DNA of 59,377 nt, the filler included, from Sphacelaria rigidula (taxonomy: Eukaryota): NCBI GenBank assembly GCA_964200075.2. It is 6 parts of 6 records of this genome, joined end to end, with 100 filler letters (N's around TTAATTAATTAA, not from the genome) between each part and the next. Parts side by side here need not be neighbours in the genome. Positions count along the whole stretch, not along the records: positions 29,742 to 39,553 come from CAXNAA020007706.1; 5 more parts are not named here. One strand, given 5' to 3'. The position numbers were made by a program, and so were the translations under genes. Below, one piece after another: positions 9,815 through 56,324 of the stretch (positions within the stretch are counted from its first letter, which is position 1; the number at the start of each line of letters is the position of its first letter). The notes beneath the pieces were generated by a model that was not told where the DNA came from, did not search any database, and saw only the letters and a program-made list of their open reading frames with translations.

Positions 9815-9914
9815 NNNNNNNNNNNNNNNNNNNNNNNNNNNNNNNNNNNNNNNNNNNNTTAATTAATTAANNNNNNNNNNNNNNNNNNNNNNNNNNNNNN
9901 NNNNNNNNNNNNNN
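9815..9914. other. Artificial contig spacer (N44-TTAATTAATTAA-N44)
   Basis: 100-bp N run with a six-frame stop linker. Confidence 0.98.
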
Positions 9915-14826: not shown

Positions 14827-16677
14827 TCACCTTTTCGCAAATTCTTCTTCGAGACGCGACCATTTTCCGCGGCGCGGAGCATCCGGCGTAAGGACGTAGG
14901 TGACCGCGCCTGCAGAATCGATTTTCACACTCACCATCGACTCGGTCTTCGTTACCTCCTGTTGATCGTTTGGAGGTCTCACTTGGGACGGCACCGGCAA
15001 CACACCGGCGGACGTAACAGGAGCTATCTCTACGGTCCCCGAAGGCCACTGCCCGGTCGCCGAATAATCCGCCTGACGTCTCCCGTCGTTCGAGCGGTCA
15101 CGGACAGGGAACGTTCTTTCCCCAGCAGCTATCCCCGCACCGCCGAGTATCGCGCGTGGACGCGGCGGATCGACACAGCTCTCCTCTCCGGAGCCGGCAG
15201 TGCTTTCTTCATCGTCGTCTTCGTCGACGGGAGGTCGATGCGACGAAACGATATTATCCGGTGGTAGGTTCGGCGCCGCTCTACCGTCCCGTGGCGCGGC
15301 AGATTGTTCGCCAGCACTCCCGGTCTGACTGTGTGTATATTTCCGCTCCTTCGTGCTGTCAGCAGGTGAGCGCCCCCGGTCTGGAACACTGACCTCGGCA
15401 CTCCCGTTATCTTCCACACTGCCGCGACTGACACCGCCTGCCCCGCCCACGCTCACCCTGCTTTTTTCAGCGAACGTCAACGAACCACACGGGGACTCCG
15501 GGACTTGGCCGCCTTTGGCTCCCGACTTCTCACCCTCTGCACAACCGCGACTCTCGGAGTTACCTGCATGGGATTCCGATCGCCAGCTGGACCCACCCCG
15601 CGATGATAAAAACGTAAGACTACAGTCATGTGCCGATTCATGACTAGTGGGGAACTTTCGGTTCAGTCTCGGAATGCTGACTTCTAATGCTGACCAGCGA
15701 TCTGTCTTCTTGGACGGTGATGGCTGCGATGGAACCTTGAGTATGAACCCGTCGCTGTTATCTGCGGCTGCAGTGGCAACGCCGGCGCCGCGCGCTCCGG
15801 TCACATGTGTACCTTTACCCGTCATGCGCGCCTCTCCTGGAGAGTGCATCGGCCGCGCATACCTCTCTGGACACGAACCGTCGTCGTCGTCTTCTCCGCT
15901 ACGGTCATGCCCCCTCTTACTATAACCAGGAAACGTCGCAGATGTAGCATCATCACGGTTGTTTTGGGCACGTTCGGCTCCCACTCTGGTCATCGCCGGG
16001 TTGTGACCAGGGAAAGAATGCCCTCGCCCCGGAAACGTGGCACGGTTCGCGTTTTGGTGGTCATCGGACATCCACGGGCGACGGGGCTCCCAGCCGCAAA
16101 TGTCACCATTTGCTGAAGCACCAACTTCAGCGATCGGGGCTCTGCTAGAATAATTATTACTCATCACCGTCCCCCGCTCGGCGGGCGTGCTACTTACGGT
16201 GGCGCTGGCATCGCTGCATGCCAATGTCCCGCAGACGGGAGATGATCTGCCGTTATCGTTCTGTGCGCGCACGGTTCTCGGAGCGTGCGGAGAAGAACAC
16301 GCTCCACTGTCTTCGTCAGACGGTGGCGTCCCTTGGCTCCGACCATTGCTGCTTGACCTGTCGGCCATTGCGCTACCACGGCAACTCGCAGCCGGCGTAG
16401 TCGTTGTCGCCGACGCCCGGTCTGCTCGCGATGCCTTGACCGAGCTGGCGACCCACCGCTTACATAAGGCCTGGGGCTTTCGCTGCCCGCCGTCGAACAG
16501 AGCCTTCTCTAGAACGTTCGGTGCAATGATTGCCGCCGTTTCCGCCTCTTGAACAGTCCTTTCTGTGCTGCCTCTCGCGCCGACCGCTACGGACGACTCG
16601 ATTCTCAACAAGCTGTCAACCGCCGCCTCGCTCATGCACTGTAAGGAACAAACCGCGGGCTGGTTCGGTTGACGCAC
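14827..16677 (-). CDS. Long low-complexity (S/G/A/R/D-rich) ORF, 616 aa; probable large exon or TE-borne gene of unknown function
   Basis: Longest ORF in the window. The same frame continues after a single TGA into 14587-14817 (contains CLHC). No recognisable domain; start not established. Confidence 0.5.
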   Translation of the reverse strand: MRQPNQPAVCSLQCMSEAAVDSLLRIESSVAVGARGSTERTVQEAETAAIIAPNVLEKALFDGGQRKPQALCKRWVASSVKASRADRASATTTTPAASCRGSAMADRSSSNGRSQGTPPSDEDSGACSSPHAPRTVRAQNDNGRSSPVCGTLACSDASATVSSTPAERGTVMSNNYSSRAPIAEVGASANGDICGWEPRRPWMSDDHQNANRATFPGRGHSFPGHNPAMTRVGAERAQNNRDDATSATFPGYSKRGHDRSGEDDDDGSCPERYARPMHSPGEARMTGKGTHVTGARGAGVATAAADNSDGFILKVPSQPSPSKKTDRWSALEVSIPRLNRKFPTSHESAHDCSLTFLSSRGGSSWRSESHAGNSESRGCAEGEKSGAKGGQVPESPCGSLTFAEKSRVSVGGAGGVSRGSVEDNGSAEVSVPDRGRSPADSTKERKYTHSQTGSAGEQSAAPRDGRAAPNLPPDNIVSSHRPPVDEDDDEESTAGSGEESCVDPPRPRAILGGAGIAAGERTFPVRDRSNDGRRQADYSATGQWPSGTVEIAPVTSAGVLPVPSQVRPPNDQQEVTKTESMVSVKIDSAGAVTYVLTPDAPRRGKWSRLEEEFAKR

Positions 16678-18199
16678 AGTCTGGCCAAGCCAAAAATCAG
16701 TGTCGATGTTTCTCCTAGCGTTTTCTCGACTTCAAAGGTTACCACCTGTAGAGGGTAGGCGAACCACCAAACGAGCATGGACGAGGGCGGCAGGTATTGT
16801 GTGAGTGTAGCCAAATCCACAGGTGGGTCGTCGTCCGCGAGTAAATAACAGCCGCGCTGTGTTGCTGCGAGGAATCAGTTTGAAGACTTGAGGTGCACAA
16901 AAATGTGAGGGTTACGGATTTCATGTGTCGACGTGAGCATACGACCCGCCGTTGGATACTTGTGACTTGGATATCTTGCCCGACGGCCGACCTTCAGCTG
17001 TTTCCGTCCCGCGCTTGGGGCAGCACGCGCTTTCGCGACCGAAAACTTCACTGCTCTAAGCAACGATTTCAACGAACAATCGTCCACAACACGCCGACAA
17101 CCTGGGCCAAGCGCCAATCGCGACATGGATACGGACAATGAAAATCGATATCGACTGTCGATTTTTACCCTCATCAAGACACCCGTCAACCCAGCGGGAA
17201 AATATTCGACAACTTTTTTTTGCCGTACTTTGAACCCCTCCCCTTCCTCGGACTGAGTCCGTGGTCTCAAGCGATCAACCAATCTCTCCCCCAGTACACG
17301 CCTTGCATATTGGTAAAGCGGATTAGGTCAGCACTCCCGCACCGAGTCAACTCACGTCAAACAAACTCATTCGATTACTTTGTTTACTCATGTTCTCACA
17401 GCAAACTGGGTCCGGTTATCTCGGTAAAAAAATGGTTTGCAACTATAGTAATACCCGAGGGAGTGTTTCGGCAAAAAAAGAGATCGACAATTTGCGGCGT
17501 AAAAAGAAGATTTGTGTCTAGTACGTCCACGTCATTTATGTTCTCAGATGGCTTCAAGTAATCTTTACAGCTATTTGCGCGAGACCGGGGTGCAAAAAAA
17601 ACAGAAAATCTCAGCCTTTTCGCTAGAAAACATGCAGCGGAAAGGAACGGAGGGGGCACTTGACTCCTAGCTAAAATACCACCACGCCAGATACCACTTG
17701 TTCACAGAACCATGAAAACCCCACACAAGTGACTCTCACCTACCACGGCAACCCTGCAGATCAGGGCACGAGTCAAGCACAGAAATACATACACTGCGGT
17801 AATTGGGAACCGGCACTATCACCCTCTTGGTATGATGCATTTCTTTTTTGTTAGGGGAACTTCAGCATTTTTTACATGGTACAGCGGGCGACCAAATTGA
17901 GTGCACGCTTATGGAGAGCACAGGCAACCCAAACAATCCGGTGTGCTGCCTGTACTGCACGTTGCCCGCGTTGTCAAATCGTACTGTACGAAACACAAGC
18001 ACACATACTATACGCGGATAGAATAGACTGCACTGAACTGTCTCTACTGATCACGAGTGAACAAGCACCGCTTCACAAATTCGACCGTCTATCTTCGATC
18101 GCGCCAAAGCTTGCAAATTTGCTCGGACCTAAACCGCGCAAAACGGACAAATTACATTGATTGAATTTCATCGAATCAATTCCGCCACATTTTTTTTGC

Positions 18200-19728: not shown

Positions 19729-19828
19729 NNNNNNNNNNNNNNNNNNNNNNNNNNNNNNNNNNNNNNNNNNNNTTAATTAATTAANNNNNNNNNNNNNNNN
19801 NNNNNNNNNNNNNNNNNNNNNNNNNNNN
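19729..19828. other. Artificial contig spacer
   Basis: 100-bp N run with TTAATTAATTAA. Confidence 0.98.
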
Positions 19829-22800
19829 GCGCTGGAGACACCAGGATCCGCGTGGTGCAGATGGGCTGGTGGTGTATAGCGCTGGCCGAAGCTTGAGCTG
19901 TATGGGTCCAGGGTCATCGATGAAGCGCACGATGTATGTGTCGGCCGAAACCAGGTTAGCGGAGTGGGTCTGACCCAACCACCAGAGGTTGTCGCTGCCT
20001 TTGAACCAAAGGTAGCTGCCCTTGGGCAGGAGTCGCTGTTTCGCGAAGAACTTCGTCTTACAAGTTTTGGTGGGTACAAGTTCGTAACCATCGGCGACGA
20101 AGCGTAGTCCTTGATTGCGATGAAGTTTGCGGACTGCTGCGCCACGACGCATGTTGCGATATTTCTTGTTGTGAGCAAGATGCTGATGTTGGGATTGCGT
20201 CCAGTAAAGGAGGATTGCACGGCGGTGCAATTGCAGGTCGGATTCGCGTTTCCAAGACGCTCTCCGAAGACCGTGCCAGTGTGTCTTACACATGACAGCG
20301 ATTTTGCCACCTCGACCACGGGTTATCTGGTGGCCGGAGGTGGAGGACACTGTCAATCGTAGGGGTCGTTCCGTCACGTCGTCGGTTGTAACGTGATAGG
20401 GCGGGAACTTGGTCGAGTAGCTATTGAGAGCATACTGTGTGAGCCGTGCAGGCAGGTACTTGGGCATATCGCTTGTATCATGCGGGTTCGTGCAGGGTTT
20501 GCATCTGTGCACGGAGACGCGGGGCTCGGTGTCTTTGCCCTGGAAGTCGCGATGCAAGTCGAGATGGAGCAGTCTGTCACCGACGCGTTTTTCATCCGGT
20601 GATGATGACGATGATCCGACTTTCAGGATCTTGAATGGTCCTGTCCAATTGAGGGACAACTTTGTATTGAAGATTGTTTCGTTGGCTGCCTTGCTGGTGC
20701 CTTGGCGAATGGTCGACAAACTGTTGTAGATCCAAACCCACTCACCAACTTTCCAGTCAGGGCGTTTGTGCATGAGGCTGTAGAGAGCAGTGTTAGATCT
20801 CTCTAGGCGCAAGGTGTTGATAGCGTGTTGTTCACGCACGACGGTAAACGCTTTGCGTTGGCGCGCATGCGCTAGCTCGTGGTAGGATATCTGATCCTGA
20901 TCCAATCCTTGGTGGCCGTCGAACGTGTGTCGCTCAAACACGGTGATAGGCAGCCGCGGGTAACGTCCAAGATGGAGTTCGTTTGGAGAAAAGCCTGTGG
21001 CGGCATTAACCGAGTTGTTGTAGGACAATATGATGTGCGAGAGATGCAGGTCCCAGTCATTTTGGCGGTCATTGACAACCATAGAGAGCATTTGGGCCAT
21101 GGTGTGATTAACTCTTTCGGTACCACCGTTACCGTTCGGGTGGTAGACGCTCGTGGCAATTTTGCGGATGCCCAGAAGCTTGTAGAGCTCATCAGAGAAA
21201 TCGGAACAAAATTGCTGACCATTGTCTGAAAGTAGTCACTTTGGGCAACCGTAGTGCTTAATGTAATCGTGGACCAGTATGTCGGCCGTTCCGGCGGCAG
21301 TGAAATCTGCGGCGGTTGCCGCGTACATGGACGCGTGGCGGCTGAAGCGGTCAGTGAAGAGTAAGATGTAGGTGTTGCCGCGACCTGTGGTCGGTAGAGG
21401 GCCAAAGTAATCAAAGGATACAAGGTGGGCGGGCTCGTCGGGGAGTCCCATAGAGATGACGGGCCAGCGTAGTGTCTGTCGTGAAGTTTTTTGGGCTTGA
21501 CATTTGAAGTATCGCCGAATCCAGAAGCGGGTTGAAATTTCCATGCCAACCCACCAGTAGAAGCGTTCCAAGAGCGCGAGAGTGCGGATGACGCCAAGGT
21601 GACATGACAAGTCTGTGTGGCAGCCTTTCATGATCCAGGGGCGCATTTATAATGGTACATACATGCGCGTTGGTTTGTCATTGAGTAGTCGTGCGGTGCG
21701 TCCCGTGGTTGAGGCGGCAATTGCGCCTGTCAAAGTCGTGGGCCGACGCACGGGTAGTTGCACACCTTCATCCGTAGTAAAAAGGGTGCCTTTACGCACG
21801 AGCTCGTATACGTCAGAAATAACAGGTGGTGGCAGTGTGCCAACCGGGGCCAGAAGTGTGGATGGAAAAGGGACTGGACAGTCGAGTTGTAAGTACCGGA
21901 TGGCTGCGCGACAGAGCGGTTCTGCGTTTTGTTCGCGAGCCCAATCGCGGTGGGAGTAGCTGGCGAGAAACTCGCGTAGTTGATCTTCCGCTGGCGAGCC
22001 GACCAAACGTGGTGGGGCAGGCGGCGGGGGAATAGGCGACGGGGCAGGAATGCCGACGTCAATGTCTGTCCCGGAGGCCGGAGCTAAGTCGTCAGCGCCG
22101 TGCTCGGGAGCGGTAAATGTTGGCGGCACCGTGGTGGACGGCGGGGCTGTATCAGCAGTGCGCGGCGAAGATTGTCCACGGCGCGTGGTGCACGGTGCAG
22201 AAGTTTTTGCGGAGCGCTGCGTGTTGGTCCGTGGAACTAGTGCTGGGTGGCTCGTAGAGGTTGTAGGTGTTGTCGGTGGCGGCGGGGCACTTGGTGTGGT
22301 GCGGGCGGCAGACCGAGAGCGCGTGTTGTCGGAGATAAGGTGGGTGACTGGGGTGTCTCCGCGAAGAGTTTCGCGCGAGTACCGAAAGTGCGGGAATCGA
22401 CAAAACCGGAGATAGTAGGCTTTCACCCACCCAAGACGGCGTCATATGGTAGAGGGCGGAGTCCTCCCATATGCATACCGGTTTCCGGGCACTGGAGGTC
22501 GAGAGCGTAAACGGATGTTGCAAAACGTCTAACCGCGTGAATTCCGGGTTCATCGGGTTCCGTTAAATGGCAAGCCGGGCTGGAATCTGCGGCCGTAGGC
22601 GGCAGAGGTAGGCGAGAAAGAAGATCGACATTCCCGTTGGTTTTGCCTGGACGGCGCTTAATGGTATACTGGTATGCTGTTGGAAACTCCAACCATCATT
22701 GTACACGCGGGTTGTGTTCGCCAACCTTGGCGAGTTGTTCAAGTGCTCCGTGATCCGTATAGATCTCGAAGGGCACGTGAAAAAGATATTGTCGAAGGCG

Positions 22801-29641: not shown

Positions 29642-29741
29642 NNNNNNNNNNNNNNNNNNNNNNNNNNNNNNNNNNNNNNNNNNNNTTAATTAATTAANNN
29701 NNNNNNNNNNNNNNNNNNNNNNNNNNNNNNNNNNNNNNNNN
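29642..29741. other. Artificial contig spacer
   Basis: 100-bp N run with TTAATTAATTAA. Confidence 0.98.
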
Positions 29742-29972
29742 CTGTCGAAGTCCTCAGAACGTAGCGTCCATGTGGCACACCCATACAACAGAGCTTCCAC
29801 CACCTCCGCTTTAAGCAGTCGAACTTTCAAGGATAGCTCGGCGTTGGGTCGGTCGTAGAGTTGGGAGCTATATTTTCGGATACGCGCCCATGCCGCGCTG
29901 ATACGGCGGTTGATTTCAGTGGAAATTTTCACATCCGCGCTGATAGCTCCACCGAGGTAGATGAACTTCCCA
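29742..29972 (-). mobile_element. RTE-clade LINE fragment, RT C-terminal region (5'-truncated, runs into contig end)
   Basis: KFIYLGGAISAD...EINRRISAAW...LSLKVRLLKAEVVEALLYGCATWTL is the typical YLG...LLYGxExW tail of RTE ORF2. Confidence 0.9.
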
Positions 29973-30110
29973 TACATATTTGGGGGTCGAAACGAAAATA
30001 TCAACATGAGAGATCGTTCGTTCGGTTGTCATAGCATCATCGCGGTTTCAGTATAGATTGACCTCGACCGTTTTCAACCGTACAGGCTGCAAAAGGTGTT
30101 TGGTGATAAA

Positions 30111-30354
30111 TTACTTTAGTCAGCGCTTTGGCCGACGTATTTGTCCTCGATTGTGCAATGGTTTCGGTCGAGGAGACCCCTGTTGTCATGGATTGCGGCG
30201 TAGTGGTGGTAAGGCAGTGCGATGATGGATAATTCATTACTTTAGTCAGCGCTTTGGATTACGTATTTTTCCTCGATTGTGCAATGGTTTCGGTAGAGGA
30301 GGCCCCTGTTGATATGGATCGCTGCGTAGTGGTGGTAGGGGTGTGCGATGATGG
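30111..30354. repeat. Tandem duplication, 126-bp period
   Basis: ttactttagtcagcgctttgg...gtgcgatgatgg starting at 30111 and 30237. Confidence 0.9.
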
Positions 30355-30556
30355 GCCAGTCGATCTGACGGGTAAAGGCCCGGAAGGCTGGCTGCAGGAA
30401 CTGGCAAGTGCTGCAGTCAGGGATGAGGTTGTTTTGATCCATTGGTGACGGATACGCAAACACACCTCTTCATATCCAGCTTGGATTCGATTCTTCGCGG
30501 ACGAGTCCCAGCCGGTATACCCCGGTGTCCACCTGAAAAGTGCTCGTAAACGCCAC

Positions 30557-30860
30557 CGATTCCAATTTCACAAAGAGAAGTTGGTTTCTGCTGCGGGTAA
30601 AAAATCGACGAAATTTGTTTTGCGACTCCGTTTTTGCGTCAGGATTTCTGCGACCTGATTCTTACGACCCGATTTTTCCACTCTGAATCCCCTATCGATT
30701 TCGTTTTTTGGGGGATAACTTTGTCAAACAGACACCAAACGCATCCTGCTCCAAGGGGCACCTGAATACACAGCAGTTGCCGCTGCCTACCTCTTATCAT
30801 CCTCCAAATCGAACTCTTGAGTGGGAACCCCCAGCGTTTGGTGCCCATGTACGGCGAAGG
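30557..30860 (-). repeat. Dispersed repeat homologous to 25890-26257
   Basis: See above. The ORF track shows GRQRQLLCIQV.LGAGCV in both copies. Confidence 0.85.
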
Positions 30861-31687
30861 ATCATTTTCATCTAGAATCATTCTCCAAAACGTACCTGAC
30901 AAGGGGGCAACACCCCCGTACAGACAGTAGCAATGAACAGGGGATTCTATAAAATGAGGTTCATCATTGAAATGAGGTTTGAAGACCCTAGCCGTTGAAT
31001 ATCAAAAAGCCCTCAAGAGTACCGCACGACGCTGCTGATGTGTAATTTTGGGGAGGAGTAGGAAGTGCGTCCGTGGTTGCACATGCCGCCCATCCCTGGT
31101 TAGCTGCGGGCGACGGACGGCGTCAACTTCACCATGGTCAGAAGAAAAAGCGGGAACCATGTCAACAATTTGTCCATGGGAGAGCGATGGATTGTCCATG
31201 ATGTTCTCACTGTGGTGCCTCGAGCCCGTGTCCAGCAGAAAATATATGGCGTCAAGGTGATCGTCACTGACGGGCATGAGGAGAGAAGTAGCTTTTCACT
31301 ATCCCGTAGACGAGCACATATCAAATCAGGATATCAAAATGGGATATCATGGAATATTGTGACAACGCGTTCTATAGAAGGCAATGATATCTAATATCCG
31401 TGCGGATTTTACCAGGTTCGAGCATACATGCCGCTGCAATGGACCACTCGACACAACACCAGCCCTACGGCGGGCGATAGTGTGGGAGTAACTCTTGGCA
31501 GGGAATAGATTAACCTCGTCACGGTTGCATGAGCCCTTGATTATGCTGGTCGCACTCCAACAGATCACCTAGGGATCCACTCGGGCAACCCGAGGCCTCA
31601 CGTGCTGAATCACGACATCACGACGATAGTCGAAGCCCCTAATCTTCCGCGACTGATGCGATGAGGAAAAGACAGGAATGCTACGCA

Positions 31688-34420
31688 TCAACCCCTGGCC
31701 CTCTTCTCCATTGTATCCAATACTGGCTTGGGAATCCTGTCACCAAAGTTTAGCTTCTCGCACGAAGCGACAACCAGCTCTGCTTGCATCCACTCTACGT
31801 CCGGCACTAACTTTCGCCTCTTGCTCTTACTGCTCATTGTACACCCTTCACTGTTCCCCACTGTCTTGTAATCTGCTGTGATTTTTCCTTTGCCGTATTC
31901 GCCGATGTTGTAGGCAGAAGCGTTGTTTCGAATGGCGGAGGTGGCCGGCGACCACCAGCGCACCTGGATTCCTGCTTCGCCATCGGTCCCCTCGCGCTTG
32001 TCCGTAACCCTACCCACCAAAAACGAAGCTTCGTCACCGACAAAGAAAACAAAATGTCCCTTGTCGAACGAGGGAACATATCCTGCTGGATGGCCATCTC
32101 CGTCGCCCCCGCTACCTAGCACTAAGTTATCGACACCACCTTTTCCCGGATCCTCATCGACAGGCGCCTTCCGCCCCCCCGCAGACCCCTCGACTACATC
32201 AACATCCCCATCTGCCCCCGCTCTCTCTTCCCGTGACCCTCCAGATGACTGCACGCCGTTACGCTTGAACCAATGACACGGGAGGTTCCACGGTACTGAG
32301 CCTTTCGCGGCCAGAAGTCGGTGGGACGTCGCCATGTCGTCTTTGATGGCCTGTTGTTTGTCGAAATCTGCGCGTCGCACGGGAGGGTGGAGGCAGTGCA
32401 TCTGAGGTATTCAGGGCTCGGATGCGCTCCTACGGTGGGGAAAATGATATGAGAAATAAGGGTAAGAAACTTGGACCCGCCGTGCGCAGCGAAAAATAAA
32501 TAAATAGAGTACACAGCGATCAGGATACAGTGTCACCACTTGGGGTGCTTGGAGGTGCAACGCACCGAGGGGGTAGAGGGCAACTAGCCGACTGTGGACG
32601 GCGTTGTAGCGAGCCAGTATGTTATCTCGCCGTGCGACATCCACCTCCTTCAGGTCGAATGGAGGTGCGCACTCCAGATCTGGAGTGGAACACCCATGCG
32701 GAAGAGCGGGTGAGGGGCTCCCTCGTAGATCCCGGCGGCCGTCTTTCCCGTGAAGACTGTAGCATGCATGTGCTTCTTCATGCCGACGGTCACCTGCTCC
32801 GTCCCCGCTGAGCGGATTTCGAATGAATGGGGCTGAGTCACGCCACGAATGGGCAGCACACGATCACCTCCACCGACAGCTCCTTTGAAGTTGCCGAGGG
32901 AGCGAAGAGTGCTGGTGAACACCTCCAGTGCCTTGTATGCCTTGCGAAAAGCTTCCGCCTGCTGCCTTCTCGTGAACAGGCAAACTCCCTTGCAGTGAAT
33001 GGAAATCCTGGTAAACAAATCCAATGCTTTTGTCGTCGGTTCTTGCTATATACATCTAAATTTCTTCTCATCGCCACCTCGCTGTACGCATAAAACATAT
33101 CCCTGAATATGCCAGTACGAAATCAGGCCGGTTTGTTCGATCCATGTTATTATGGTATTTTGGCGCGTAAGCACGTGTGCTGTGGATCATCGTGGATTCA
33201 TGTCCAGTCCACCTACGGCGCTTCGAAATCGCATATATCTGGACACCGTGTCGGCGTGGAATATCGCTGCCGGAGGCGATATTTCATCTGCTCCTAGGGT
33301 TTTGACCACCGCGTCTGTGGAGGCAACGCATGACTTATGCGACCCGTGTTTACAACGACAGAGGTACTTGTGCAGTGAGAGATCTCGTCTGAAAAAATGC
33401 GACAACATGAACGAAAAACAAATTCCAAAATATGGCGGGAGTATTGAGTGATGGGTGCGGTTTCACGCCTGCAGTATCACAGTAGAAGGCGAACGCGGTG
33501 GGGATGGTGTCTCCTTGCCCCCCGTCGTATTCGCGGATAAATTATAATCTGGTTTGACGTGGTCACGGCGAGGAACAGCGAGGTCGCGGGTAGATGATGT
33601 AACCATCACCGGGTCTTGTGATGGGTGGGTCCGTTCGTGTACTGGATAAAATCGACGTCTTCGTTGGATTCACTACGGTTCGTATAAGGAACAACCATTT
33701 TTTCCCGTGACACAAAGCTACATGATTCCCTCCACTCGTCACTGTTGTCTGCAAGGATAATCCCGACGCACCTCGAAAAGACCTAGTCTATCATGATGTG
33801 GGTATGTCCCACCATCATGAAATTAATCTCCACGCGGCCGATTGTCCCACGGGCCACAAGACATCCGAGGTATCCCAGCACGATGTGGTTCTTATTTTCT
33901 CCAACACAGTTGTCGAGTTGCAGATAAAGCTCATCGATGTAAGCTGGTGTGTCGCCGGTGCAGTGCAAGTCGAATAATCGGGTAAGCGCGAGGTGGATTG
34001 AAGTGCAAATAAGATTGCTCCCTGCACAGCGGCGAGCAACGACGGCGTCAGGGCGCGAATGTCAGTATTCTCGGGGGTTGTTGGCTACAAGGAATGCCGT
34101 AACAACTCATCTCTTACTCTCGGTCGGGATACGAAAAGGCCTCCCGAGCAGATTGCTCGGATAAGAAACCAAGATAGCCGAGTGTCTTCGGTCCCCCGCG
34201 GTGCGCAACTCATCACGGGCGGTGTCTGGTTCACGAATGCCGTGAGTGCGTGCACATCGCGTGGGAGAGCAGGAACTCACCTCCTCCGATTGTGAGGGGA
34301 GACAGGAAGAATTCCACGAACTGCCCTTCCACAAGTACTGCCATAACTTCTTGGCGCTCCGCGTATCCCCTGCCAGACGCGGTGATCGCCAACAACGACT
34401 AGCAGAAGTCATATGCACCA
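31688..34420 (-). pseudogene. Intron-containing DUF7869/Sola-like DDE transposase pseudogene
   Basis: Spliced reading: MAVLVEGQFVEFFLSPLTIGG-G|SNLICTSIHLAL...ELYLQLDNCVGENKN...FMMVGHTHIMID*VFS-R|ISIHCK...IRGVTQPHSFEI. GT-AG introns 34280-34022 and 33771-33008 both restore frame. TAG at 33784-33786 where Q is expected; frameshift near 32690. The last exon (32401-31688) has an aromatic beta-barrel-like segment (FVFF...FLVGRV...VRWW). Confidence 0.75.
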
Positions 34421-35569
34421 CTGAAGCAACATGAATGGATATTCAGGGAATCAGTTACTCACGTACTTGTTATAGCGTCCCGGCTCATGACAGAAACCCT
34501 CGAAGGGCGATAAGTAACTCGATATATGCCTTGACACCTCCTGCGGTCTCGGAAGAGACAATTCTCCGAACACCGTCTTTGCAGCAAAACGGTCGTGAGA
34601 AAACACATTGGAACATTCGTCACGCTTCATACAGGGTGTTGGCACCAAAACGTAGCATATTCCGGGCAGGATACTGTGTGGTGCCCTTGTATTTTTCGAG
34701 ATGAGGAGCAGAGAATGAAGGTATAAGGAATAGTCCAATTCTAAGGGCCGAAGAAAAGCGAGGGAAAACTTGAAGCGAGGGGGGGCGCAGACAATGACAG
34801 AACGATGTAGAACACACGTGTACGACCTGGAGATATGCAGGGAAACATCATCGCATCGGACTGAAATACAAAGGGGGAGGGGGGGAATGATGCTTCGTTA
34901 CCCGTGCTGTCGCGATAACCGCTCTCTCACCCGTCTGTGCCGTGTGTCAACGGCGAGCACATCGGTAACGCGAATTTCACGGGACCAACACTGCTGCTGT
35001 ACCGCATTGCCGACTCCACGAGAGTGTGGCGTGCACTGTATGACACCGCCCACGATGCTACACCCTACAGTACGCTCCGATGCGGCAGTCGGCTGCAGGA
35101 AGAGGACATACGCCTGCTCTTTCGGTTCTCGCTTCACTCGTTGCCAGGGCTCGGGTGTACAGATATGTTTGTATCCACGCGTGAGCGGGGGTGACCAGCC
35201 CATACACTCCGCTCCCCATTGCGGCAACGTGCGAGAAGCTGAGGTTAGTTGAGGTTGCTTGATTCGGATCTGGGATCAGCGGACCACTCCCTTTGTTCGA
35301 TCATTTCTCACTCTCACTGCTGACACCCACGGTTTCCGAATACGTCAAATGAAGATACTAGAGAACGGTTGATGCTGTTGAATCACGTTTGATTGCCCTG
35401 CCTGAACTCCGTATTGTTCGTCCACTGCGCTCTGTCAGCGCGCGCGGGGTAACTTGAATCGCGTGACGATGGCCCGAGCAAAAACAGAAATGTTCGACAG
35501 TAACATAACACATGTTTCCTACGCCCGTCAACGCGTGCCGGCACCCCCGCCCCCTCTTGAAAATGACAG

Positions 35570-38500
35570 CTGCATGTGCGGGTCCCGTCCATGACGACTC
35601 TACGGCAATGGAAAAGAGCGGTTGTGTCGACATCGCCAGAAGCGATGAAGGCCATCGCTTGGGCGTTTCAATGCGACAACCGTGGCGTTGACTCGGGAGC
35701 CATATCCCTGGCTTTTCTCAGAAGCAAGCAGTACGCAGACCTGCATGATAAACCCCAGGCCCAATCCATCGCGATCAACATGCTCGTCAGGTACACACCA
35801 CCCGTCTAATGCGGCTAGATAATCACATGACCCTTAGTTTATTGCATCTTGTGTCAGGGTCAATCGCTGGGGGTTTCGGCGTACGATGCATCGTGTAACG
35901 CACCCGAACCCGACGCCCACAAAAACACAGACGCCGACTGTGCATCGTTGAGGCACGCGCTTGAGCGGCCACCCTATGATCACACACCGCTCAACATGGG
36001 TAATAATATGCTCATTTCACATCGGCGATGATGACCGTTTTCAGACGCTAATGTTTCTCATCAACATCGGACTCTCGTACATTCAAAATCCCGTGAAAGG
36101 GTCTGCGAACACGAGAGCACCAGACAGAGTTGCCGGTGGGCGGGATATCAGTTTCGCCACATGCGGTTTCCCTTGGTCCCGTCATGCAGCACGTAACAGG
36201 TGAAAGGTCTGATGTACTCTTTGCAGCACACATTATATATTCGAGCTGTCCGCCGGTTCCAAACGGCGAACAAGACAAATCTTAAAGCGAGTGACTGGGG
36301 GCGTATCTCCACAGATGCACAAACAGCCGCAACCCTCCTGGAGCGTTCAGAAAGGCAGATCCCTCGTGAGGTGTGGACCGACGTCTTCGAAGAGTAAGTT
36401 TACATTGATTGTAACACACGCGTCGACTGCGGTGGACCGTAACCGCTGTCGTAGGCTACAGTATTTCGGAAGCAAGGATCGCGCGTGCAGCACATGTTTG
36501 TGTCACGCTTAGACTTGCGCCCCTTACGCTAGCAACCTTTCCGGCATCATTCCACCTTGCATAAAAAGCGTAGCGTTTCAGCAGGTGGCATAGATAGCGC
36601 AGCGTTTCGGCAAGTAGCGTAATCGATACTAATTTTTAAATGGGGGGCATACTCGAGCTTAAATTCTCCAGTAGAGGTGGCAACAATGATCTAAATGTCG
36701 ACGTGGTGTGATATGTTGGGGTTGAACTCTGCTATCATCGACCGCGGCCGGGTCTGATATACCAGTCATTCAAACTGCCGGGTTGACTTTCGTTTCTTTG
36801 TTTGACTCCATATATCTAAACATATATTCGCAGCGTGTAGTATGCATGTAGTGATCGGTGGGTCTGCATCCAGTCAAGAATGGCGCTTGTTGGATATTGC
36901 GAGCATAATTGAGCATAAATCCCATCTTGCGAGCATGGATCGTCGAGCTCAAATTTTGTTAAATTCGAGCATAGATTGCGCTCCACGAGCCGAATCTTTT
37001 GTGTAACTACTAGCATTACAAAATGACTTCATTACCATGAGGGGCAAAAGCGCTATAACACTCACGGGAGGCATTTTGCGCTCCGCGAACATCATCGCGA
37101 CTAGGGTTGCTCACGACTTGACTCGCGGCACATACGGGCTGGAGGATTTCAAGCTGCACGTCACGGACTTCATCTCATCAGTAGACAACAGCATAGAAGA
37201 GACACGGGCAAGCCTGCCCGAGGAAGAACGGGACGGAGCAGCCATGAACGCGTTCGAAGATGTCTGTTTCAGCAAACTCCATAGGCCGCTGGACCTGGTA
37301 CATGACCGACACACAAAAGTCAAGAGTTGAATGTTGGATAGTGAGTAATTCGGGCGATAGGTCGCCGAGACGATACAAACGTAAGGTGGATCGGACATGC
37401 TGCTGTGATAAATAAATCCAAATCGCGCAGAACGGGCTTGTGACGCGCAAAATTGGCGCATGCCAGTCATGGGCACAACTAGGATAGTACACCACGTGAT
37501 CGGGAGACAAGTGAAACATTTCCACGAGGTTGTTCACCTACATTTTCAACCACGGCCTGTTTTCGCAGAAAGCACAAAGAGGGGCCCTGAGGCGGTACAA
37601 CGATAGTTGGAGGAAGAGGTGGGACGAGGCCAACAACACCATCGCTCGCTTGAAGTTGGCGAACGCGGGCGACGAGGAAGGCGTCGACGAGGATGCTGGT
37701 GAATCGGAGGAGGATGGTAGCGATTGTCAACGACCGGCTGAGGGCAGCCGCAAAGACGAATTGTGTTCCTCGTGCGACCCATCATCAGACGTCAGGGGAG
37801 AAGGGATAGCATGAATCAACACGCAAGCCATTTCGATGGTGTCGACCACACCAGTTGACCTCCTGAAGTACAATGCTACCGTTGTAAGATCGCCACGTGT
37901 GATGATTGACACAGCAATCACCTTACCTGGAAGACCGCCAACCGCTCGACACTTTCATGCCGTCCTCGCAAAGGCAGATGCCATTGCGTACACTGCGGGA
38001 TGAAGCACCAGACCTTCTGTGAGCTGCTTGTGCCCGCCTCCGAGGATGCATCTCTTGCCGAGAGGAAGCGACGTCTCTGCCTTGTCTGCGAGGACGAGCC
38101 GGGGCGCCAGAAGAGGAAAGGGAACAGAACTGACGGGGTCGGGGGCGGAGGGAATCCTAAAAAGAAGGGGAAGAAATCGTCACAGGCAGGGCAAATGCTG
38201 CCCCCTGCCGGTCCCACCGTGGAAAGCAGAAGGTGCGAGGATAGGTTGCCGTTGTGGAGACTGTGTCGTCGACTGAAGCTTACCTTTAGATTGCTCCCTT
38301 GGACGACGGTTGTGACAGCATGCATGAGTCGGTCGACATGCGACACTGGGACCGTCAAGCGGAGCTGTTTGTAGGTTCTCCTGTCTTTCGTTCAACCTCG
38401 CGCACTGCTCGACTATGAAAATCTGACGGTGCAACCGCCAGCTTAGCCACCGTAATGGAACGCACGCCGAAGAATTACGCCGGATTGGCCCCCACCCCAA

Positions 38501-39553
38501 CGCCTGCTCAAAACCGCCAGCCAAACAATGAATGGCTATCCACCACGTGATGTTCGATTCCACGGTGCATGGAGGGCCTTGTTTACTCGACATGGACGAA
38601 AAGAAATAGAAGCGTGAATATTCCAATCTGCTCAATATGAGGATATTTTGTCATCGATTTTACGTGTAGGTTGTCGCCCCCCCCCGAACCAAGCACTCTC
38701 TCGGGAGGGGCTGTATCGGAGAACACGCGCTACACCCCGCGACGTGCGGACGACCAGCGCGCAACGAAGGGAAACTGACGATGCTATTGCGTGCTTGCGA
38801 CGTGATATTGTACACGGCTAATCTACTCCGCCGCCACTGCGCTCTTATTGACCAACAAGAGCCACTCCCTGTGAAGAGACCGCCGAAGCTCATCATAGTC
38901 TCCATCGATGTCGAGAAAACAATGCCGAGCACGACAAATGATGACAACAAGGGATACTTCAGGCGGTTCGTTGAAAAGGCACTGGAAGTCTTGCATCCGA
39001 TGGGCACCATCGCCTTTGCAGTCCCGCGGCCCTGAAATCGACACGGGCATCGTATCCAAGGTATCACGGTCTGCACGGTACGTGACAGGCACAACCGCGG
39101 CATCGATGTTGCTGAAAACAGGGTAGACACATCTGAGTCGGTATCCGCCGCACGAGCGCGGACAGGGTAAATTGTGTGCTTCGCTTCGTCCGTCACATTG
39201 AATCGCCGCGCCCTGTTGTGATGTTTGTACTCCCCTGGCACCCCCCGAACATCCACCGTCGCTGCGATCCACCGTGGTGCGCACCCCTACGCAGGAGCGA
39301 TCGAAGCCGACCCTTCAATGGTGGTCGAAGACGACTACGTGCTAGTAGAGTACTCCAGCCGCCACGGGGGCTCCCCAAAGAAACACGAGAGATATCATTT
39401 TTACCCTCACATGGAGGGCATTATGGTGGCACACAAGCAGCCGAGCGAAGAGAACAAAACATTCACGGTCAACCCGAGGGTGACCTTCGCCGATCCCTAC
39501 GGCACGAAGACCAACGGCAAAGTGCCGGAATGCTGGCAAAGATGGGCGGGGGG
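35570..39553 (+). pseudogene. Multi-exon gene remnant with acidic linker, PHD-like Cys/His cluster and beta-class DNA methyltransferase-like segment
   Basis: Coding-like blocks at ~35590-35790, 36280-36393, 37037-37320, 37530-37814, 37960-38170 (CHCVHCGMKHQTFC...LCLVC), 38670-39060 and 39295-39553. GT-AG intron 39061-39294 restores frame. Stops and frameshifts are present. Joining all blocks into one gene is inferred. Confidence 0.45.
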
Positions 39554-39653
39554 NNNNNNNNNNNNNNNNNNNNNNNNNNNNNNNNNNNNNNNNNNNNTTA
39601 ATTAATTAANNNNNNNNNNNNNNNNNNNNNNNNNNNNNNNNNNNNNNNNNNNN
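39554..39653. other. Artificial contig spacer
   Basis: 100-bp N run with TTAATTAATTAA. Confidence 0.98.
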
Positions 39654-49465: not shown

Positions 49466-49565
49466 NNNNNNNNNNNNNNNNNNNNNNNNNNNNNNNNNNN
49501 NNNNNNNNNTTAATTAATTAANNNNNNNNNNNNNNNNNNNNNNNNNNNNNNNNNNNNNNNNNNNN
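49466..49565. other. Artificial contig spacer
   Basis: 100-bp N run with TTAATTAATTAA. Confidence 0.98.
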
Positions 49566-54551: not shown

Positions 54552-55657
54552 TAAAGAGCGCTGGTGAAATCGACATCTTGTCCACTTTGATGGTGGAAAA
54601 AGAATGACGGTCGGGCGTACTGATGAGTGTTTTGCCCTGTGTCTTCTCGCCCTCAAAGAGGGCTCGACACCTGAAGACGCCTCGTGTAGTCCCCCTTGTC
54701 CACTATTTTTTTAGTGAGAAAAGAAAGTACCTTGTCGAGGGCGGTCATGCAACACTCGATGGGTACCCCCCTCTGCTTTGGTTGGACCCGTTTTACTCCC
54801 TCTCGTGACTTTGACGCCTCTTTTTGTCCTTGCGCCAACCGGGTTAGAAGCTTACTTATCTTGTCGCAGGCCGACTCCCCACGCCCTTTTATTACCACAC
54901 CCAATAACTCCACACCTGGTTGTCTTCGACCCCCTGCTACCCCCGTTTTCCTCCGGACGCCCTCCCTGCAGCCCACCCGCCACAGTACCCTGGGCCGTCA
55001 ACCATGCAGGTAGCGTTGCTCCGCGCCCACGCCCTCGCCCCACGGGCACCGGCACAATATTCGCGAGCCTGTCATTTCCCCCAACACCCGCACCACCCCC
55101 GATAGTGACGCCGTTGTCTCTCTCTTTAGCTGTCTCTGCTTGTCTACGTTCCCTGCCTGTTTGCCTCCTACCTCTGCGCATGTGTCTGGCTGGCTGACTG
55201 GTCTGTTGACGCTGTTTCCTTTTGTGCCTCCTTTCCTGTGTCGCCGTCCCTGGCGCTGTATGTGTTCTCGTCGATGTATCTAGCGTCACTTTTCTCTCCT
55301 ATCTCAAGACAACAACACACCGTATCACACCACACACTGGACATTCAGGGAAAAGAGAACATGAAGCGCGCCGCTTTCTCTTTCACTATTCTGTTTCTCT
55401 AAGCCATTCCTGTAACCTCCCGTTCTGTTTGCTCAACAACAACAAAAACCATGCATGCTTTTCCTGTAAAATCATCCCCACCCATATGATCGTCCACCAT
55501 AATTTCCCAGATTACAGGGAAGACATGACATATCTCTCTTTTACACATATCTATATATTTATGTAGATATTCCAGCGAAAATGTTACCGAAAATTTCTCC
55601 TTGTTTCTCCTCATTGTTCGCACGGGCGTGTTCTCATTTTTTCAATCATCTCATCAG

Positions 55658-55810
55658 GAAGACTTCAAGACACACGAGCTGCCTTTAGCTCGCATCAAGA
55701 AAATCATGCGGCTGGAAGATGACATAGCAGAGCTCGGAACCCCTCGCTTTATGATCGCGGCGGAAGCTCCCATTGTTATCGCCAAGGCATGCGAGATCTT
55801 CGTGCTCGAG
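55658..55810 (+). CDS. NF-YC: NF-YC/HAP5-like histone-fold protein, internal exon (51 aa)
   Basis: cag|[51 protein letters not shown]|gt carries the [10 protein letters not shown]...MI.AEAP...AKACE.F..E signature. Phase-0 splice sites. Confidence 0.92.
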
Positions 55811-56324
55811 GTGGGTGGGGATTTTCAGGGAAGTTCACACGAGTTTGTAGTTGGAAAAAAACACGGTATAAGCATACTTGATTGTAGTATTTTTCTCATA
55901 ACTTTTTACTCAACCTCCCCCTATCCTCCCTTTCCTCTCTCCGCCTCGAACTCCCCCTTGTTAAGGTTGGTGTCCGGTGTACACAACGCTGTAAAACACG
56001 CCACTCACTGCGTAAGCTAGGCAACCAGGTTGCCGTTTTTTTCCTCGCCTGCGTGTTTTTCTGCGATAACCGTGATGGTGGTCGAGGTAGATCATATTGT
56101 GCGCGGTAGAAGAACCTCAACTCCGCGCAAAGGGAATGCTTGTACTACGTAGTGTCTGAATGGTGAGACACCCATGAGGTTTGTAGCACGTGGCTGTCTC
56201 TGGAAGTGGCAGTGCCAGAAAATAAAGCGAGTCATTGGCGGCTCTCATCTAGATGCACGATAATCAGCGCTTCGGGCCGAACAATCTTAGCAGGATGCAG
56301 CTCACCCTTCGTGCGACTCGCCGA

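What the first reader, a model, noticed from the sequence alone, without database searches (positions are those of the whole stretch)
31688..39553. Best candidate system: transposase head-to-head with a PHD-like plus DNA-methyltransferase-like gene
Within one contig, the minus-strand transposase pseudogene and a plus-strand multi-exon gene remnant diverge from a region around 34450-35570. Both are intron-containing and similarly decayed by scattered nonsense and frameshift changes, as expected if they were inactivated together as a single >8-kb element. Inference: a large DNA transposon carrying its own chromatin-reading/DNA-modifying cargo. TE-borne DNA-modifying enzymes are known in other systems (TET/JBP with KDZ transposons; methylase domains in DIRS elements). 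I do not know of this specific pairing, but cannot check the literature.
Basis: inference. Interest (0 to 1): 0.7.

Follow-up and report, generated by a model that had tools for sequence, protein, structure and literature searches.

The report
Decayed algal transposon carrying methylase-like gene
This is a dead copy of a large brown-alga DNA transposon that carries, next to its transposase, a gene with a zinc finger and a DNA-methyltransferase-like domain, a pairing already published for Ectocarpus in 2025.

Summary
The window is six ~9.8 kb chunks joined by N spacers, and the finding lies in chunk 29742-39553.

- **Minus strand.** A DUF7869 transposase gene (Pfam E 5e-19) has two canonical GT-AG introns, a TAG stop and a 5-bp frameshift.
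- **Plus strand.** A multi-exon gene has a C4HC3 zinc finger (92% identical to a Sphacelaria rigidula protein fragment) and an MTase-like domain. It is broken by a TGA in a conserved PRPW motif and by two 1-bp deletions, and the chunk end cuts it off.
- **Homology.** Its full-length relative is an 1116-aa Ectocarpus protein. A model of that domain matches beta-class N6A/N4C DNA methyltransferases (CcrM Z 12.6; hhalign E 7.8e-5).
- **Copy number.** DNA contigs of the same organism show many diverged copies, and a repeat boundary at 30935|30936.

The interpretation (a large transposon with DNA-modifying cargo) is supported but already in print: Dinatale et al. 2025 describe Ectocarpus Sola1-1_Ec32, 21.5 kb, with a ParB-like plus DNA-methyltransferase gene opposite the transposase. 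So this is a new member of a known kind.

One new point: 0 of 21 family members carry the canonical (D/N/S)PP(Y/F/W) catalytic motif, so the "methylase" may not methylate. Linkage at other loci of this genome was not tested.

The parts
30936..31687 (.). Probable left terminal and subterminal region of the element. It begins AACAGGGG at 30936.
   Evidence: table 7: 85 (X1) and 82 (X4) contigs start matching at 30936, with unrelated sequence before it (consensus agreement 0.36). Another 83 and 82 contigs of a different, very abundant repeat stop matching at 30935. Summed depth in bin 31054-31381 is 7.5-10 thousand, against 0.6-1.5 thousand further in. Contig 25 of X7 runs from 31206 to 31814, into the transposase 3' end. 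The Ectocarpus element starts AACCG. The right end is not in the window.
31688..32410 (-). 240-aa open frame ending in the stop at 31688-31690; probably the C-terminal part of the transposase gene, with no known domain.
   Evidence: ORF. It is in the same frame as 'APPFDLKEVDV...', separated from it by one stop. No Pfam hit. Atlas lead only: 6 of 30 hits fall in clusters where 12% of members carry DUF7869, score 0.91. Possibly-RNA contigs cover 31611-32192 (table 8).
32600..33007 (-). Transposase exon 3, with a frameshift near 32681.
   Evidence: tblastn with P0001 residues 102-213 matches 33018-32683 at 66% identity, E 2e-45. The acceptor AG is at 33009-33008. Five letters at 32681 are left out in contigs of depth 1408.6 of 2126.1 (X1) and 1127.7 of 1127.7 (X4) (table 4).
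33008..33771 (-). Transposase intron 2 (764 nt, GT..AG).
   Evidence: Read: AG|GTGCGT donor at 33771-33770 and cag| acceptor at 33010-33008. The splice restores 'VFSR-ISIHCKGV', matching P0001 'VFSRLSVHCKGV'. Contigs of other copies cover the intron (records 4 and 5).
33772..34021 (-). Transposase exon 2, the DUF7869 core (DNCVGENKN...GHTH), with an in-frame TAG at 33785-33783.
   Evidence: Pfam PF25273, E 5e-19. P0001 and P0002 are 58-64% identical across this piece in tblastn and 66-68% in the BLASTP. The TAG stands where P0001 has Q.
34022..34280 (-). Transposase intron 1 (259 nt, GT..AG).
   Evidence: G|GTGAGT donor at 34280 and tgcag|G acceptor at 34022. The splice gives 'TIGGGSNLICTSIH', against P0001 'TVGGGGNLICTAIH'.
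34281..34344 (-). Transposase exon 1 as far as it can be traced. The true N-terminal part was not found.
   Evidence: tblastn with P0001 residues 1-30 matches 34344-34255, E 6e-7. No protein-like minus-strand frame lies upstream.
34487..34681 (+). Possible first exon of the cargo gene (start of the ParB-like region), with two in-frame stops. Weak.
   Evidence: Smith-Waterman against P0044 residues 69-137 scores 40; 8 of 200 shuffled queries reach that score.
35585..35794 (+). Cargo gene, middle region.
   Evidence: tblastn with P0044 residues 246-316: 31.5% identity, E 0.009, collinear with the other matches.
37752..38191 (+). Cargo gene: two exons (37752-37796 and 37976-38191) encoding a C4HC3 zinc finger and a KKKGKK stretch, with an intron between them.
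   Evidence: P0004 (S. rigidula) matches at 87% and 92% identity, E 1e-29. The pattern C-x2-C-x9-C-x2-C-x3-H-x3-C-x19-C-x2-C has the same C4-x3-H-x3-C core as Ectocarpus P0044. No GT follows 37796 in this copy.
38781..39060 (+). Cargo gene, MTase-like block A (PPKLIIVSID...LHPMGTIAFAVPRP-stop), with TGA at 39033-39035 where the family has W.
   Evidence: P0006 is 91% identical.
39061..39294 (+). Cargo gene intron (234 nt, GT..AG).
   Evidence: Read. The splice gives 'HRIQGAIEADPS', against P0006 'HRIQDAIEVDPS'.
39295..39553 (+). Cargo gene, MTase-like block B (VEDDYVLVEY...MVAHKQP...FADPYG...). It carries a 1-bp deletion near 39537 and is then cut by the chunk end.
   Evidence: P0007 is 82% identical and P0008 59%. 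tblastn with P0044 residues 655-721 gives E 1.5e-5. An extra A behind 39537 is seen at depth 706.7 of 1372.5 (X1) and 663.9 of 705.7 (X4). It restores 'CWQKMGGG' as in P0007.

Best explanation
The stretch from about 30936 to beyond 39553 is the left 8.6 kb or more of one decayed copy of a giant cut-and-paste DNA transposon of a brown alga close to Sphacelaria. It is the counterpart of Ectocarpus Sola1-1_Ec32.

**What it carries.** The element has a DUF7869-type transposase gene on the minus strand. On the plus strand it has an accessory gene whose product has four parts:
- a probable ParB-like DNA-binding N-terminus;
- a helical middle region;
- a C4HC3 (PHD-like) zinc finger with a basic stretch;
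- a circularly permuted beta-class N6A/N4C DNA-methyltransferase-like domain.

**How it most likely works (inferred).** In intact copies the transposase cuts and pastes the element. The accessory protein binds the element's own DNA or chromatin, through the ParB-like part and the finger, and acts there through the methylase-like domain. It does so either by marking DNA or, if the domain is inactive, as a binding scaffold. The likely effect is on the element's own transcription or silencing.

**Shown versus inferred.**
- Shown: both genes, their introns, their breaks, the fold, the multi-copy state, and homology to the Ectocarpus protein.
- Inferred: that the two genes move as one unit in this genome, the Sola1 assignment, and any activity of the cargo.

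This copy is dead. Both genes carry stops and frameshifts that other copies in the same organism lack.
For: **Transposase.** Pfam DUF7869 at E 5e-19. Brown-alga homologs at 66-68% identity. Two canonical introns and the TAG stop.

**Cargo.**
- 32 family hits in 1.84 billion representatives, of which 8 are below 1e-10.
- A profile of these fragments finds Ectocarpus P0038 at E 3.7e-47. Its 90% cluster holds the 1116-aa P0044.
- tblastn of P0044 on the window gives collinear matches at 35585-35794, 38862-39032 and 39324-39527.

**Fold.**
- AlphaFold model of P0045: mean pLDDT 51 overall, 83-93 for residues 31-110.
- Foldseek: 27 PDB matches at E 0.001 or better, led by M1.HpyAVI at 4.7e-5 and CcrM at 2.2e-4.
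- VIA-align: CcrM Z 12.6 (187 aligned residues, rmsd 4.2), M.MboIIA 11.7, M.RsrI 11.3, rotifer N4CMT 11.0, M.PvuII 10.7.
- hhalign of the family against YhdJ plus 8 phage methylases: E 7.8e-5, probability 61%, 233 collinear columns. The reversed control gives E 0.44.

**Multi-copy.**
- 5364 (X1) and 5730 (X4) contig pieces were laid at 85% likeness or more.
- Collapsed contigs inside both genes have depth 303-558. The exact flanking contig 29925-30594 has depth 25-35 (table 8).
- There is a repeat boundary at 30935|30936 (table 7).

**Published precedent.** PMC12477816 (passages; supplementary table).
Against: - No contig or other locus was obtained that shows the two genes side by side a second time. 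The metagenome scan found 1 locus, a 22-residue chance-like match. Two viral scans found none.
- The transposase N-terminal part could not be found upstream of 34344. A possible cargo first exon starts only about 140 bp away. So this copy may be rearranged, or the junction may be misread.
- DUF7869 was not tied to Sola1 by any search. No paper in the library names DUF7869 or PF25273.
- Pfam, NCBIfam and PHROGs give no significant ParB, PHD or methylase hit on P0044.
- The N-terminal 560 residues folded with pLDDT under 50 almost throughout (one search was still waiting; result).
- That P0044 (1116 aa) is the paper's 1104-aa protein is my inference.
Confidence: 0.8

Rival explanations
1. Two unrelated repeats lie side by side by chance. 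On this reading a DUF7869 transposon fragment landed next to, or inside, a different element or gene family that carries the ParB/MTase-like gene, and the two do not move together.
For: - No second locus with both genes was obtained.
- The transposase 5' part is missing.
- An internally deleted form joining 32215 to 34933 exists in runs X6 and X7 (table 5), so rearranged copies are about.
- Giant algal transposons often hold nested insertions (PMC12477816, passage).
Against: - The same pairing, on opposite strands, is curated as one family with 282-bp terminal inverted repeats in Ectocarpus.
- Among the loose ends shown, none lies between 31200 and 39553 other than 4 single or double contigs at 33796-33842. 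However, 1206 rows were not shown.
- Summed depth is alike over both genes, 530-1560 in all bins from 31710 on except one bin over the conserved transposase core.
Confidence: 0.12
2. The stretch is a remnant of an inserted giant virus (phaeovirus-like) rather than a transposon. On this reading the methylase-like gene is viral.
For: - ParB-plus-methylase genes are typical of phages and prokaryotes (PMC4738411, passages).
- Brown-alga genomes hold many inserted viral elements (PMC11890097, abstract only).
Against: - Both genes have canonical spliceosomal GT-AG introns.
- There are many diverged copies, with diverse flanks at 30936.
- A transposase gene is present.
- There is no relative in IMG/VR by two single-protein scans, which reach close relatives only.
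Confidence: 0.03
3. The plus-strand gene is an ordinary single-copy host gene that happens to lie beside a transposon.
For: The Ectocarpus relative is annotated as 'expressed unknown protein'.
Against: - The frame is broken by at least one stop in a conserved motif and by two 1-bp deletions.
- Contigs of other copies, at depth 335-375, cover 36907-37201 and 38207-38421. The unique flank has depth 25-35.
- S. rigidula alone yields several different fragment proteins on different contigs.
Confidence: 0.03

Closest known systems
Sola1-1_Ec32 of Ectocarpus (Dinatale et al. 2025, Genome Biol 26:320, PMC12477816)
   Same: - Both are brown-alga giant DNA transposons.
- In both, the transposase and a large accessory gene lie on opposite strands.
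- The accessory protein has a beta-class N4C/N6A DNA-methyltransferase-like domain. The window's gene is homologous to Ectocarpus P0044.
- The left end here starts AACAG; Ectocarpus has AACCG.
   Different: - This copy comes from a different order of brown algae. Its best named matches are Sphacelaria rigidula fragments at 86-92% identity, and about 30-31% to the Ectocarpus protein over the matched stretches.
- This copy is dead and is cut at 39553.
- TIR length, TSD and full length are unknown here.
- The paper's supplementary table calls the extra gene 'Ectocarpus specific', which the present copy and Pylaiella P0019 contradict.
Plavaka accessory genes PAG2 and PAG3 of the red alga Bostrychia (Petroll et al. 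2025; preprint 10.1101/2025.02.11.637652, one passage read)
   Same: Giant algal DNA transposons whose accessory proteins combine ParB-type DNA binding with nucleic-acid or chromatin-modifying domains. Those authors propose that the proteins bind and modify their own element.
   Different: - There the N6A methylase is fused to SET (PAG2) and ParB is fused to a 2OG oxygenase (PAG3), on a Plavaka/KDZ-type element.
- Here ParB-like, zinc finger and methylase-like parts sit in one protein on a Sola1-type element.
- No tandem inverted-repeat array was found in the window's part.
Bacterial and phage beta-class DNA amino-methyltransferases (CcrM, M.RsrI, M.MboIIA, M.PvuII, YhdJ; Pfam N6_N4_Mtase)
   Same: The fold and the permuted order of blocks are the same over about 220 residues (Z 10.7-12.6; hhalign). 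The N-terminal 'NT-IH-G' resembles YhdJ 'KTIIHGD'.
   Different: - No Pfam hit.
- 0 of 21 members have (D/N/S)PP(Y/F/W), whereas all 9 reference enzymes keep D or S first and Y last.
- The Ectocarpus protein has GIGVETTT where YhdJ has DPFAGSFTT.
- It has introns, a zinc finger and long extra regions.
Rotifer N4CMT (Adineta vaga; PDB 8s9o/8s9n/8s9m)
   Same: A eukaryotic protein with a bacterial-type beta-class amino-methyltransferase domain joined to a chromatin-type reader module (the reader module is recalled, not from a call). Structural match Z 10.6-11.0.
   Different: It is a host gene that silences transposons (recalled), not transposon cargo. Its catalytic motif was not examined here.
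KDZ transposons with TET/JBP genes in fungi, and DIRS1 elements with an inactive methylase domain
   Same: Mobile elements that carry DNA-modification-type domains. The DIRS1 domain is judged inactive because of substitutions in catalytic residues (PMC4738411, passage).
   Different: Different transposase superfamilies and different enzyme folds or classes.

Membership tests
Sola1-type giant DNA transposon (as Sola1-1_Ec32) | Transposase homologous to Sola1 transposases | tested here: inconclusive
   The gene hits Pfam DUF7869 at E 5e-19. No Sola1 reference protein could be fetched. No held paper names DUF7869 or PF25273, and Bao et al. 2009 is not held. The assignment rests on the shared cargo gene.
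Sola1-type giant DNA transposon (as Sola1-1_Ec32) | Accessory gene on the opposite strand, homologous to the Ectocarpus ParB/MTase gene | tested here: met
   The fragment profile finds Ectocarpus P0038 at E 3.7e-47. P0044 gives collinear tblastn matches on the plus strand. The transposase is on the minus strand. That P0044 is the paper's 1104-aa protein is inferred.
Sola1-type giant DNA transposon (as Sola1-1_Ec32) | Terminal inverted repeats and 4-bp target-site duplication | not testable with these tools
   Only a probable left end (30936, AACAG...) lies in the chunk. The right end lies beyond 39553, and no whole genome is held.
Sola1-type giant DNA transposon (as Sola1-1_Ec32) | Many dispersed copies | tested here: met
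   82-85 contigs per DNA run have unrelated flanks at 30936. Contigs of other copies at 85-99% likeness lie over both genes.
Beta-class N6A/N4C DNA methyltransferase (N6_N4_Mtase) | Fold and permuted block order (motif IV region first, motif I region last) | tested here: met
   VIA Z 12.6 to CcrM, with the top 17 rows all DNA amino-methyltransferases. Foldseek E 4.7e-5. hhalign E 7.8e-5 over 233 columns, control 0.44. Tested on the Ectocarpus relative with the family alignment, not on the window's broken copy.
Beta-class N6A/N4C DNA methyltransferase (N6_N4_Mtase) | Match to the curated family model (PF01555) | tested here: not met
   There was no PF01555 hit in any of these scans: 49 window ORFs, 31 family fragments (best was Eco57I at E 0.077 in 2 of 31), P0038 at E up to 10, and P0044/P0045 at E up to 1.
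Beta-class N6A/N4C DNA methyltransferase (N6_N4_Mtase) | Catalytic motif IV (D/N/S)PP(Y/F/W) | tested here: not met
   0 of 21 members that cover the region have it, in either possible register: x-P-P-K by hhalign, or the four residues after the strand in the model. The window reads RPPK / IDVE.
Beta-class N6A/N4C DNA methyltransferase (N6_N4_Mtase) | SAM-binding motif I (FxGxG) | tested here: inconclusive
   Only the Ectocarpus cluster covers it: GIGVETTT aligned to YhdJ DPFAGSFTT. Model confidence there is low. The window ends before it.
PHD finger | Cys4-His-Cys3 zinc-binding pattern | tested here: met
   The window and P0005 read C-x2-C-x9-C-x2-C-x3-H-x3-C-x19-C-x2-C. P0044 has the same core, with x11 before the last pair. 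P0004 has Y in place of H. The canonical spacing x4-5-H-x2-C is recalled and differs by one residue on each side.
PHD finger | Match to a PHD family model | tested here: not met
   No PHD family at E up to 1 for the window ORF 37910-38371, nor for P0044, P0047 or P0041. The only trace is a non-significant phmmer match to the ASH1L PHD, E 6.3.
ParB N-terminal domain | Match to ParB_N (PF02195) or a ParB/Srx-like fold | tested here: inconclusive
   No Pfam hit on P0044. The model of residues 1-560 has pLDDT under 50 almost throughout. An Atlas lead goes to DUF3723 only. The 'CLDGNHRLRAL' likeness to ParB-type nucleases is recalled. The domain is stated for the Ectocarpus protein in PMC12477816. 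In the window there is only a weak match at 34487-34681.

The most novel reading that the evidence does not exclude
The methyltransferase-like domain carried by these brown-alga transposons may be a pseudoenzyme, or an enzyme with a new active site.

- The whole family keeps the beta-class fold but has lost (D/N/S)PP(Y/F/W) in 0 of 21 members.
- At least in Ectocarpus it has also lost the glycine-rich SAM loop.
- It has gained its own strongly conserved motifs: PPKL, LHPxGTxAFxxPRPW and GAPNGGPR.

If so, the cargo would be a DNA or chromatin binder that mimics a methylase, as METTL14 or the DIRS1 domain do. That would go against the published prediction that it writes 4mC or 6mA.
Probability: 0.35. 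Interest if true: 0.55.

Novelty: new member of a known kind. Interest (0 to 1): 0.3.

Why it matters
Brown algae such as Ectocarpus are reported to lack cytosine-5 methylation (recalled). A transposon family that brings its own DNA-methylase-like protein is therefore one of the few candidate sources of DNA marks, or of mimicry of them, in these genomes.

- This copy shows that the Ectocarpus pairing is not species-specific. It also occurs in a Sphacelaria-like alga, so it is old or mobile among brown algae.
- The missing catalytic motif gives a concrete test. If intact copies do not methylate DNA, the published functional guess needs revising.
- The copy in the window itself is dead and ordinary.

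Tried and rejected
**Family and profile scans**
- Pfam on 12 and then 49 ORFs gave nothing beyond DUF7869.
- PHROGs and NCBIfam on 7 proteins gave only E 0.08-0.26 hits, among them phrog_18293 'methyltransferase' at P0044 residues 749-784, E 0.2.
- A PDB sequence search with profile A1 gave a best hit of E 0.16, with MePCE at E 1.8. P0038 gave 0 hits, and P0044 gave 3 hits at E 2.5-6.3.
- hhalign of A2 against YhdJ alone was not significant, E 0.29. It became significant only with 9 reference sequences.

**ParB-like domain**
- The second fold job (whole P0044) left the ParB-like and zinc-finger parts under pLDDT 50, so there is no fold test of them.
- A ParB_N search in 5 phage records gave 0 matches and yielded no control sequences.
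- A phage 'DNA methyltransferase' fetched as a hoped-for ParB fusion was a C5 methylase.

**Searches for other loci**
- A single-protein metagenome scan gave 1 locus with a 22-residue match.
- Viral scans with P0044 and P0001 gave none.

**Expression**
- No RNA holder is listed for the stretch.
- Runs X6 and X7 are only guessed to be RNA. Their contigs over 31611-32192 and the 32215-to-34933 joint therefore say nothing firm about expression.

**Resources not available**
- A cluster look-up of 10 more fragments gave no organism names, so the family's range beyond Sphacelaria, Ectocarpus and Pylaiella is unknown.

**Ideas dropped**
- No parS-like inverted-repeat array or long internal repeat lies in 30900-39553.
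- I first read the 'LFTR' before exon 3 as a duplicated target site of an insertion. It is just the polypyrimidine/AG end of a canonical intron.

Full report
**Setting.** The window is not one contiguous stretch. Ten runs of 44 N, in pairs around the spacer TTAATTAATTAA, split it into six chunks of about 9.8 kb. The finding lies in chunk 29742-39553, so its right edge is an artificial cut. G+C is about 50-54%. The best named protein matches are to brown algae: Sphacelaria rigidula at 86-92% identity, then Ectocarpus and Pylaiella.

**Minus strand: a real, broken transposase gene.**
- ORF 33783-34061 hits Pfam DUF7869 (PF25273) at E 5e-19, 69 bits against a cut-off of 26.
- It is 68% identical to a 238-aa partial S. 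rigidula protein, P0001.
- tblastn with P0001 gives three collinear pieces.
- Read on the DNA, these pieces are exons joined by two canonical introns. The first has donor G|GTGAGT at 34280 and acceptor cag|G at 34022. The second has donor AG|GTGCGT at 33771 and acceptor cag|G at 33008. Both splices restore the P0001 sequence.
- The copy is dead. TAG stands at 33785-33783 where P0001 has Q.
- There are 14 nt where P0001 has three codons, just upstream of 'APPFDL'. In the DNA runs most other copies lack five letters at 32681 (table 4).
- A 240-aa open frame (31691-32410) follows in the same frame and ends the gene. It has no known domain.
- I could not find the N-terminal part of the transposase upstream of 34344.

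**Plus strand: a real, broken multi-exon gene.** Pfam sees nothing in 49 of 49 plus-strand ORFs of 35 aa or more. Homologs do exist, however.
- *Zinc finger.* Positions 37752-37796 plus 37976-38191 match S. rigidula P0004 at 87% and 92% identity. They encode C-x2-C-x9-C-x2-C-x3-H-x3-C-x19-C-x2-C followed by a KKKGKK stretch. This is a Cys4-His-Cys3 pattern of PHD type. Its core recurs in the Ectocarpus protein, but no PHD model matches it.
- *Fragment family.* Reading 38418-39551 through its stops and searching 1.84 billion representatives gave 32 hits, 8 of them below 1e-10. All are fragments of 74-196 aa, falling in two blocks.
- *Splicing.* In the window the two blocks are joined by a GT-AG intron at 39061-39294.
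- *Breaks.* The invariant PRPW reads PRP-TGA. Other copies have one more base at 37491 and at 39537, and the extra base at 39537 restores 'CWQKMGGG'.

**What the cargo is.**
- A profile of the fragments found Ectocarpus P0038 at E 3.7e-47.
- Its cluster holds the 1116-aa P0044 and the E. siliculosus models CBJ26631/CBJ26632.
- P0044 matches the window collinearly at 35585-35794 (E 0.009), 38862-39032 (E 0.16) and 39324-39527 (E 1.5e-5). There is a weak further match at 34487-34681, where 8 of 200 shuffles reach the score.
- An AlphaFold model of P0045 with the family alignment is confident only for part of the domain: mean pLDDT 51 overall, 83-93 for residues 31-110. It nevertheless matches beta-class DNA amino-methyltransferases throughout.
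- By Foldseek, M1.HpyAVI scores 4.7e-5 and CcrM 2.2e-4.
- By VIA-align, CcrM has Z 12.6 (187 residues, rmsd 4.2), M.MboIIA 11.7, M.RsrI 11.3, rotifer N4CMT 11.0 and M.PvuII 10.7.
- As an independent check I aligned the family profile to E. coli YhdJ plus eight phage methylases. This gave E 7.8e-5, probability 61%, over 233 collinear columns, against E 0.44 for the reversed control.

So 'DNA-methyltransferase-like' is right as to fold and descent.

**The catalytic motif is missing.**
- In 0 of 21 family members that cover the region is there a (D/N/S)PP(Y/F/W) motif. This holds in both possible registers: the hhalign register (x-P-P-K, with lysine where the aromatic residue should be) and the register suggested by the modelled strand.
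- The nine reference enzymes all keep D or S first and Y last.
- The Ectocarpus protein also has GIGVETTT where YhdJ has DPFAGSFTT. This rests on one sequence cluster and on a low-confidence part of the model.
- Activity is therefore doubtful.

**ParB-like part.** I could not test it. There is no Pfam hit. The whole-protein model is under pLDDT 50 there. The Atlas gave only a DUF3723 lead. The domain is stated in print for the Ectocarpus protein.

**Repeat status and one end.**
- Contigs of four runs were laid at 85% likeness.
- The exact flank 29925-30594 sits in a contig of depth 25-35.
- Contigs of other copies inside both genes have depth 303-558. The tool warns that this is no copy number, so I take it only as 'many copies'.
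- At 30935|30936, 82-85 contigs per DNA run begin to match with unrelated sequence before that point (agreement 0.36).
- At the same place an abundant neighbouring repeat stops, where its consensus would go on (agreement 0.86-0.87).
- This is what an insertion end looks like. The element then starts AACAGGGG, against AACCG in Ectocarpus.
- Runs X6 and X7 hold a form that joins 32215 to 34933, an internally deleted derivative.
- No listed contig bridges the two genes.

**What is known.**
- Dinatale et al. 2025 (PMC12477816; passages read, supplementary table) describe Sola1-1_Ec32. It is 21,549 bp, with AACCG..CGGTT termini, a 282-bp TIR and a 4-bp TSD. [quoted passage not shown]
- They cite similar cargo in green and red algae.
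- The Bostrychia preprint (one passage) describes Plavaka accessory genes with N6A-methylase plus SET and with ParB plus 2OG oxygenase.
- Iyer et al. 2015 (PMC4738411, passages) list ParB-linked eukaryotic adenine methylases and note inactive transposon-borne methylase domains in DIRS1. The passages I read do not describe this brown-alga family.
- Searches for 'DUF7869' and 'PF25273' found no paper.

**Verdict.** This is a decayed member from another brown-alga lineage.

Three things remain open:
- co-linkage at other loci of this genome;
- the Sola1 assignment of DUF7869;
- whether the cargo methylates anything.

The last of these is the only point with some novelty.

Noticed in passing
window 9815-9914, 19729-19828, 29642-29741, 39554-39653, 49466-49565: The window is six equal chunks of about 9.8 kb joined by N44-TTAATTAATTAA-N44 spacers. 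Features cannot be assumed to be neighbours across these joints.
   Followed up: yes
window 30559-30935: A very abundant repeat (summed depth about 100,000 in bin 30726-31053). It stops at 30935, where most copies continue with a shared sequence. It looks interrupted by the insertion of the element. A related stretch lies in chunk 3 (30556-30852 matches chunk positions 6070-6429 at 80-82% identity).
   Followed up: partly
window 32215 / 34933: Runs X6 and X7 (kind only guessed as RNA) hold a form that joins 32215 to 34933, skipping 2717 bases with GATTCT between, at depth about 170. The two DNA runs laid do not show it. It is probably an internally deleted derivative that lacks the transposase core.
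   Followed up: no
window 29742-30028 (-): An open frame at the chunk's left edge looks, by recall only, like the C-terminal part of a LINE reverse transcriptase. It was not scanned.
   Followed up: no
window 30110-30354: Tandem repeat with a 126-bp unit, 1.9 copies, 89% matches.
   Followed up: no
window 21239-21646 (-): Integrase zinc-binding domain (Integrase_H2C2, E 5.9e-10): a retroelement fragment in chunk 3.
   Followed up: no
window 14830-16731 (-): A 634-aa stop-free frame with no Pfam family at E 0.001.
   Followed up: no
window 55529-56017 (+): Histone-fold match (CBFD_NFYB_HMF, E 5.7e-7) in an open frame of chunk 6.
   Followed up: no
P0012/P0029 and P0010/P0017 (family fragments): Block-A and block-B fragments share contig lengths pairwise (5501 and 5847 bases). 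This is as expected if gene callers split one intron-containing gene into single-exon proteins. Most of the family is therefore annotated only as fragments.
   Followed up: partly
PMC12477816, supplementary table: The table calls the extra gene of Sola1-1_Ec32 'Ectocarpus specific'. Homologs in Sphacelaria, Pylaiella and this window show that it is not.
   Followed up: partly
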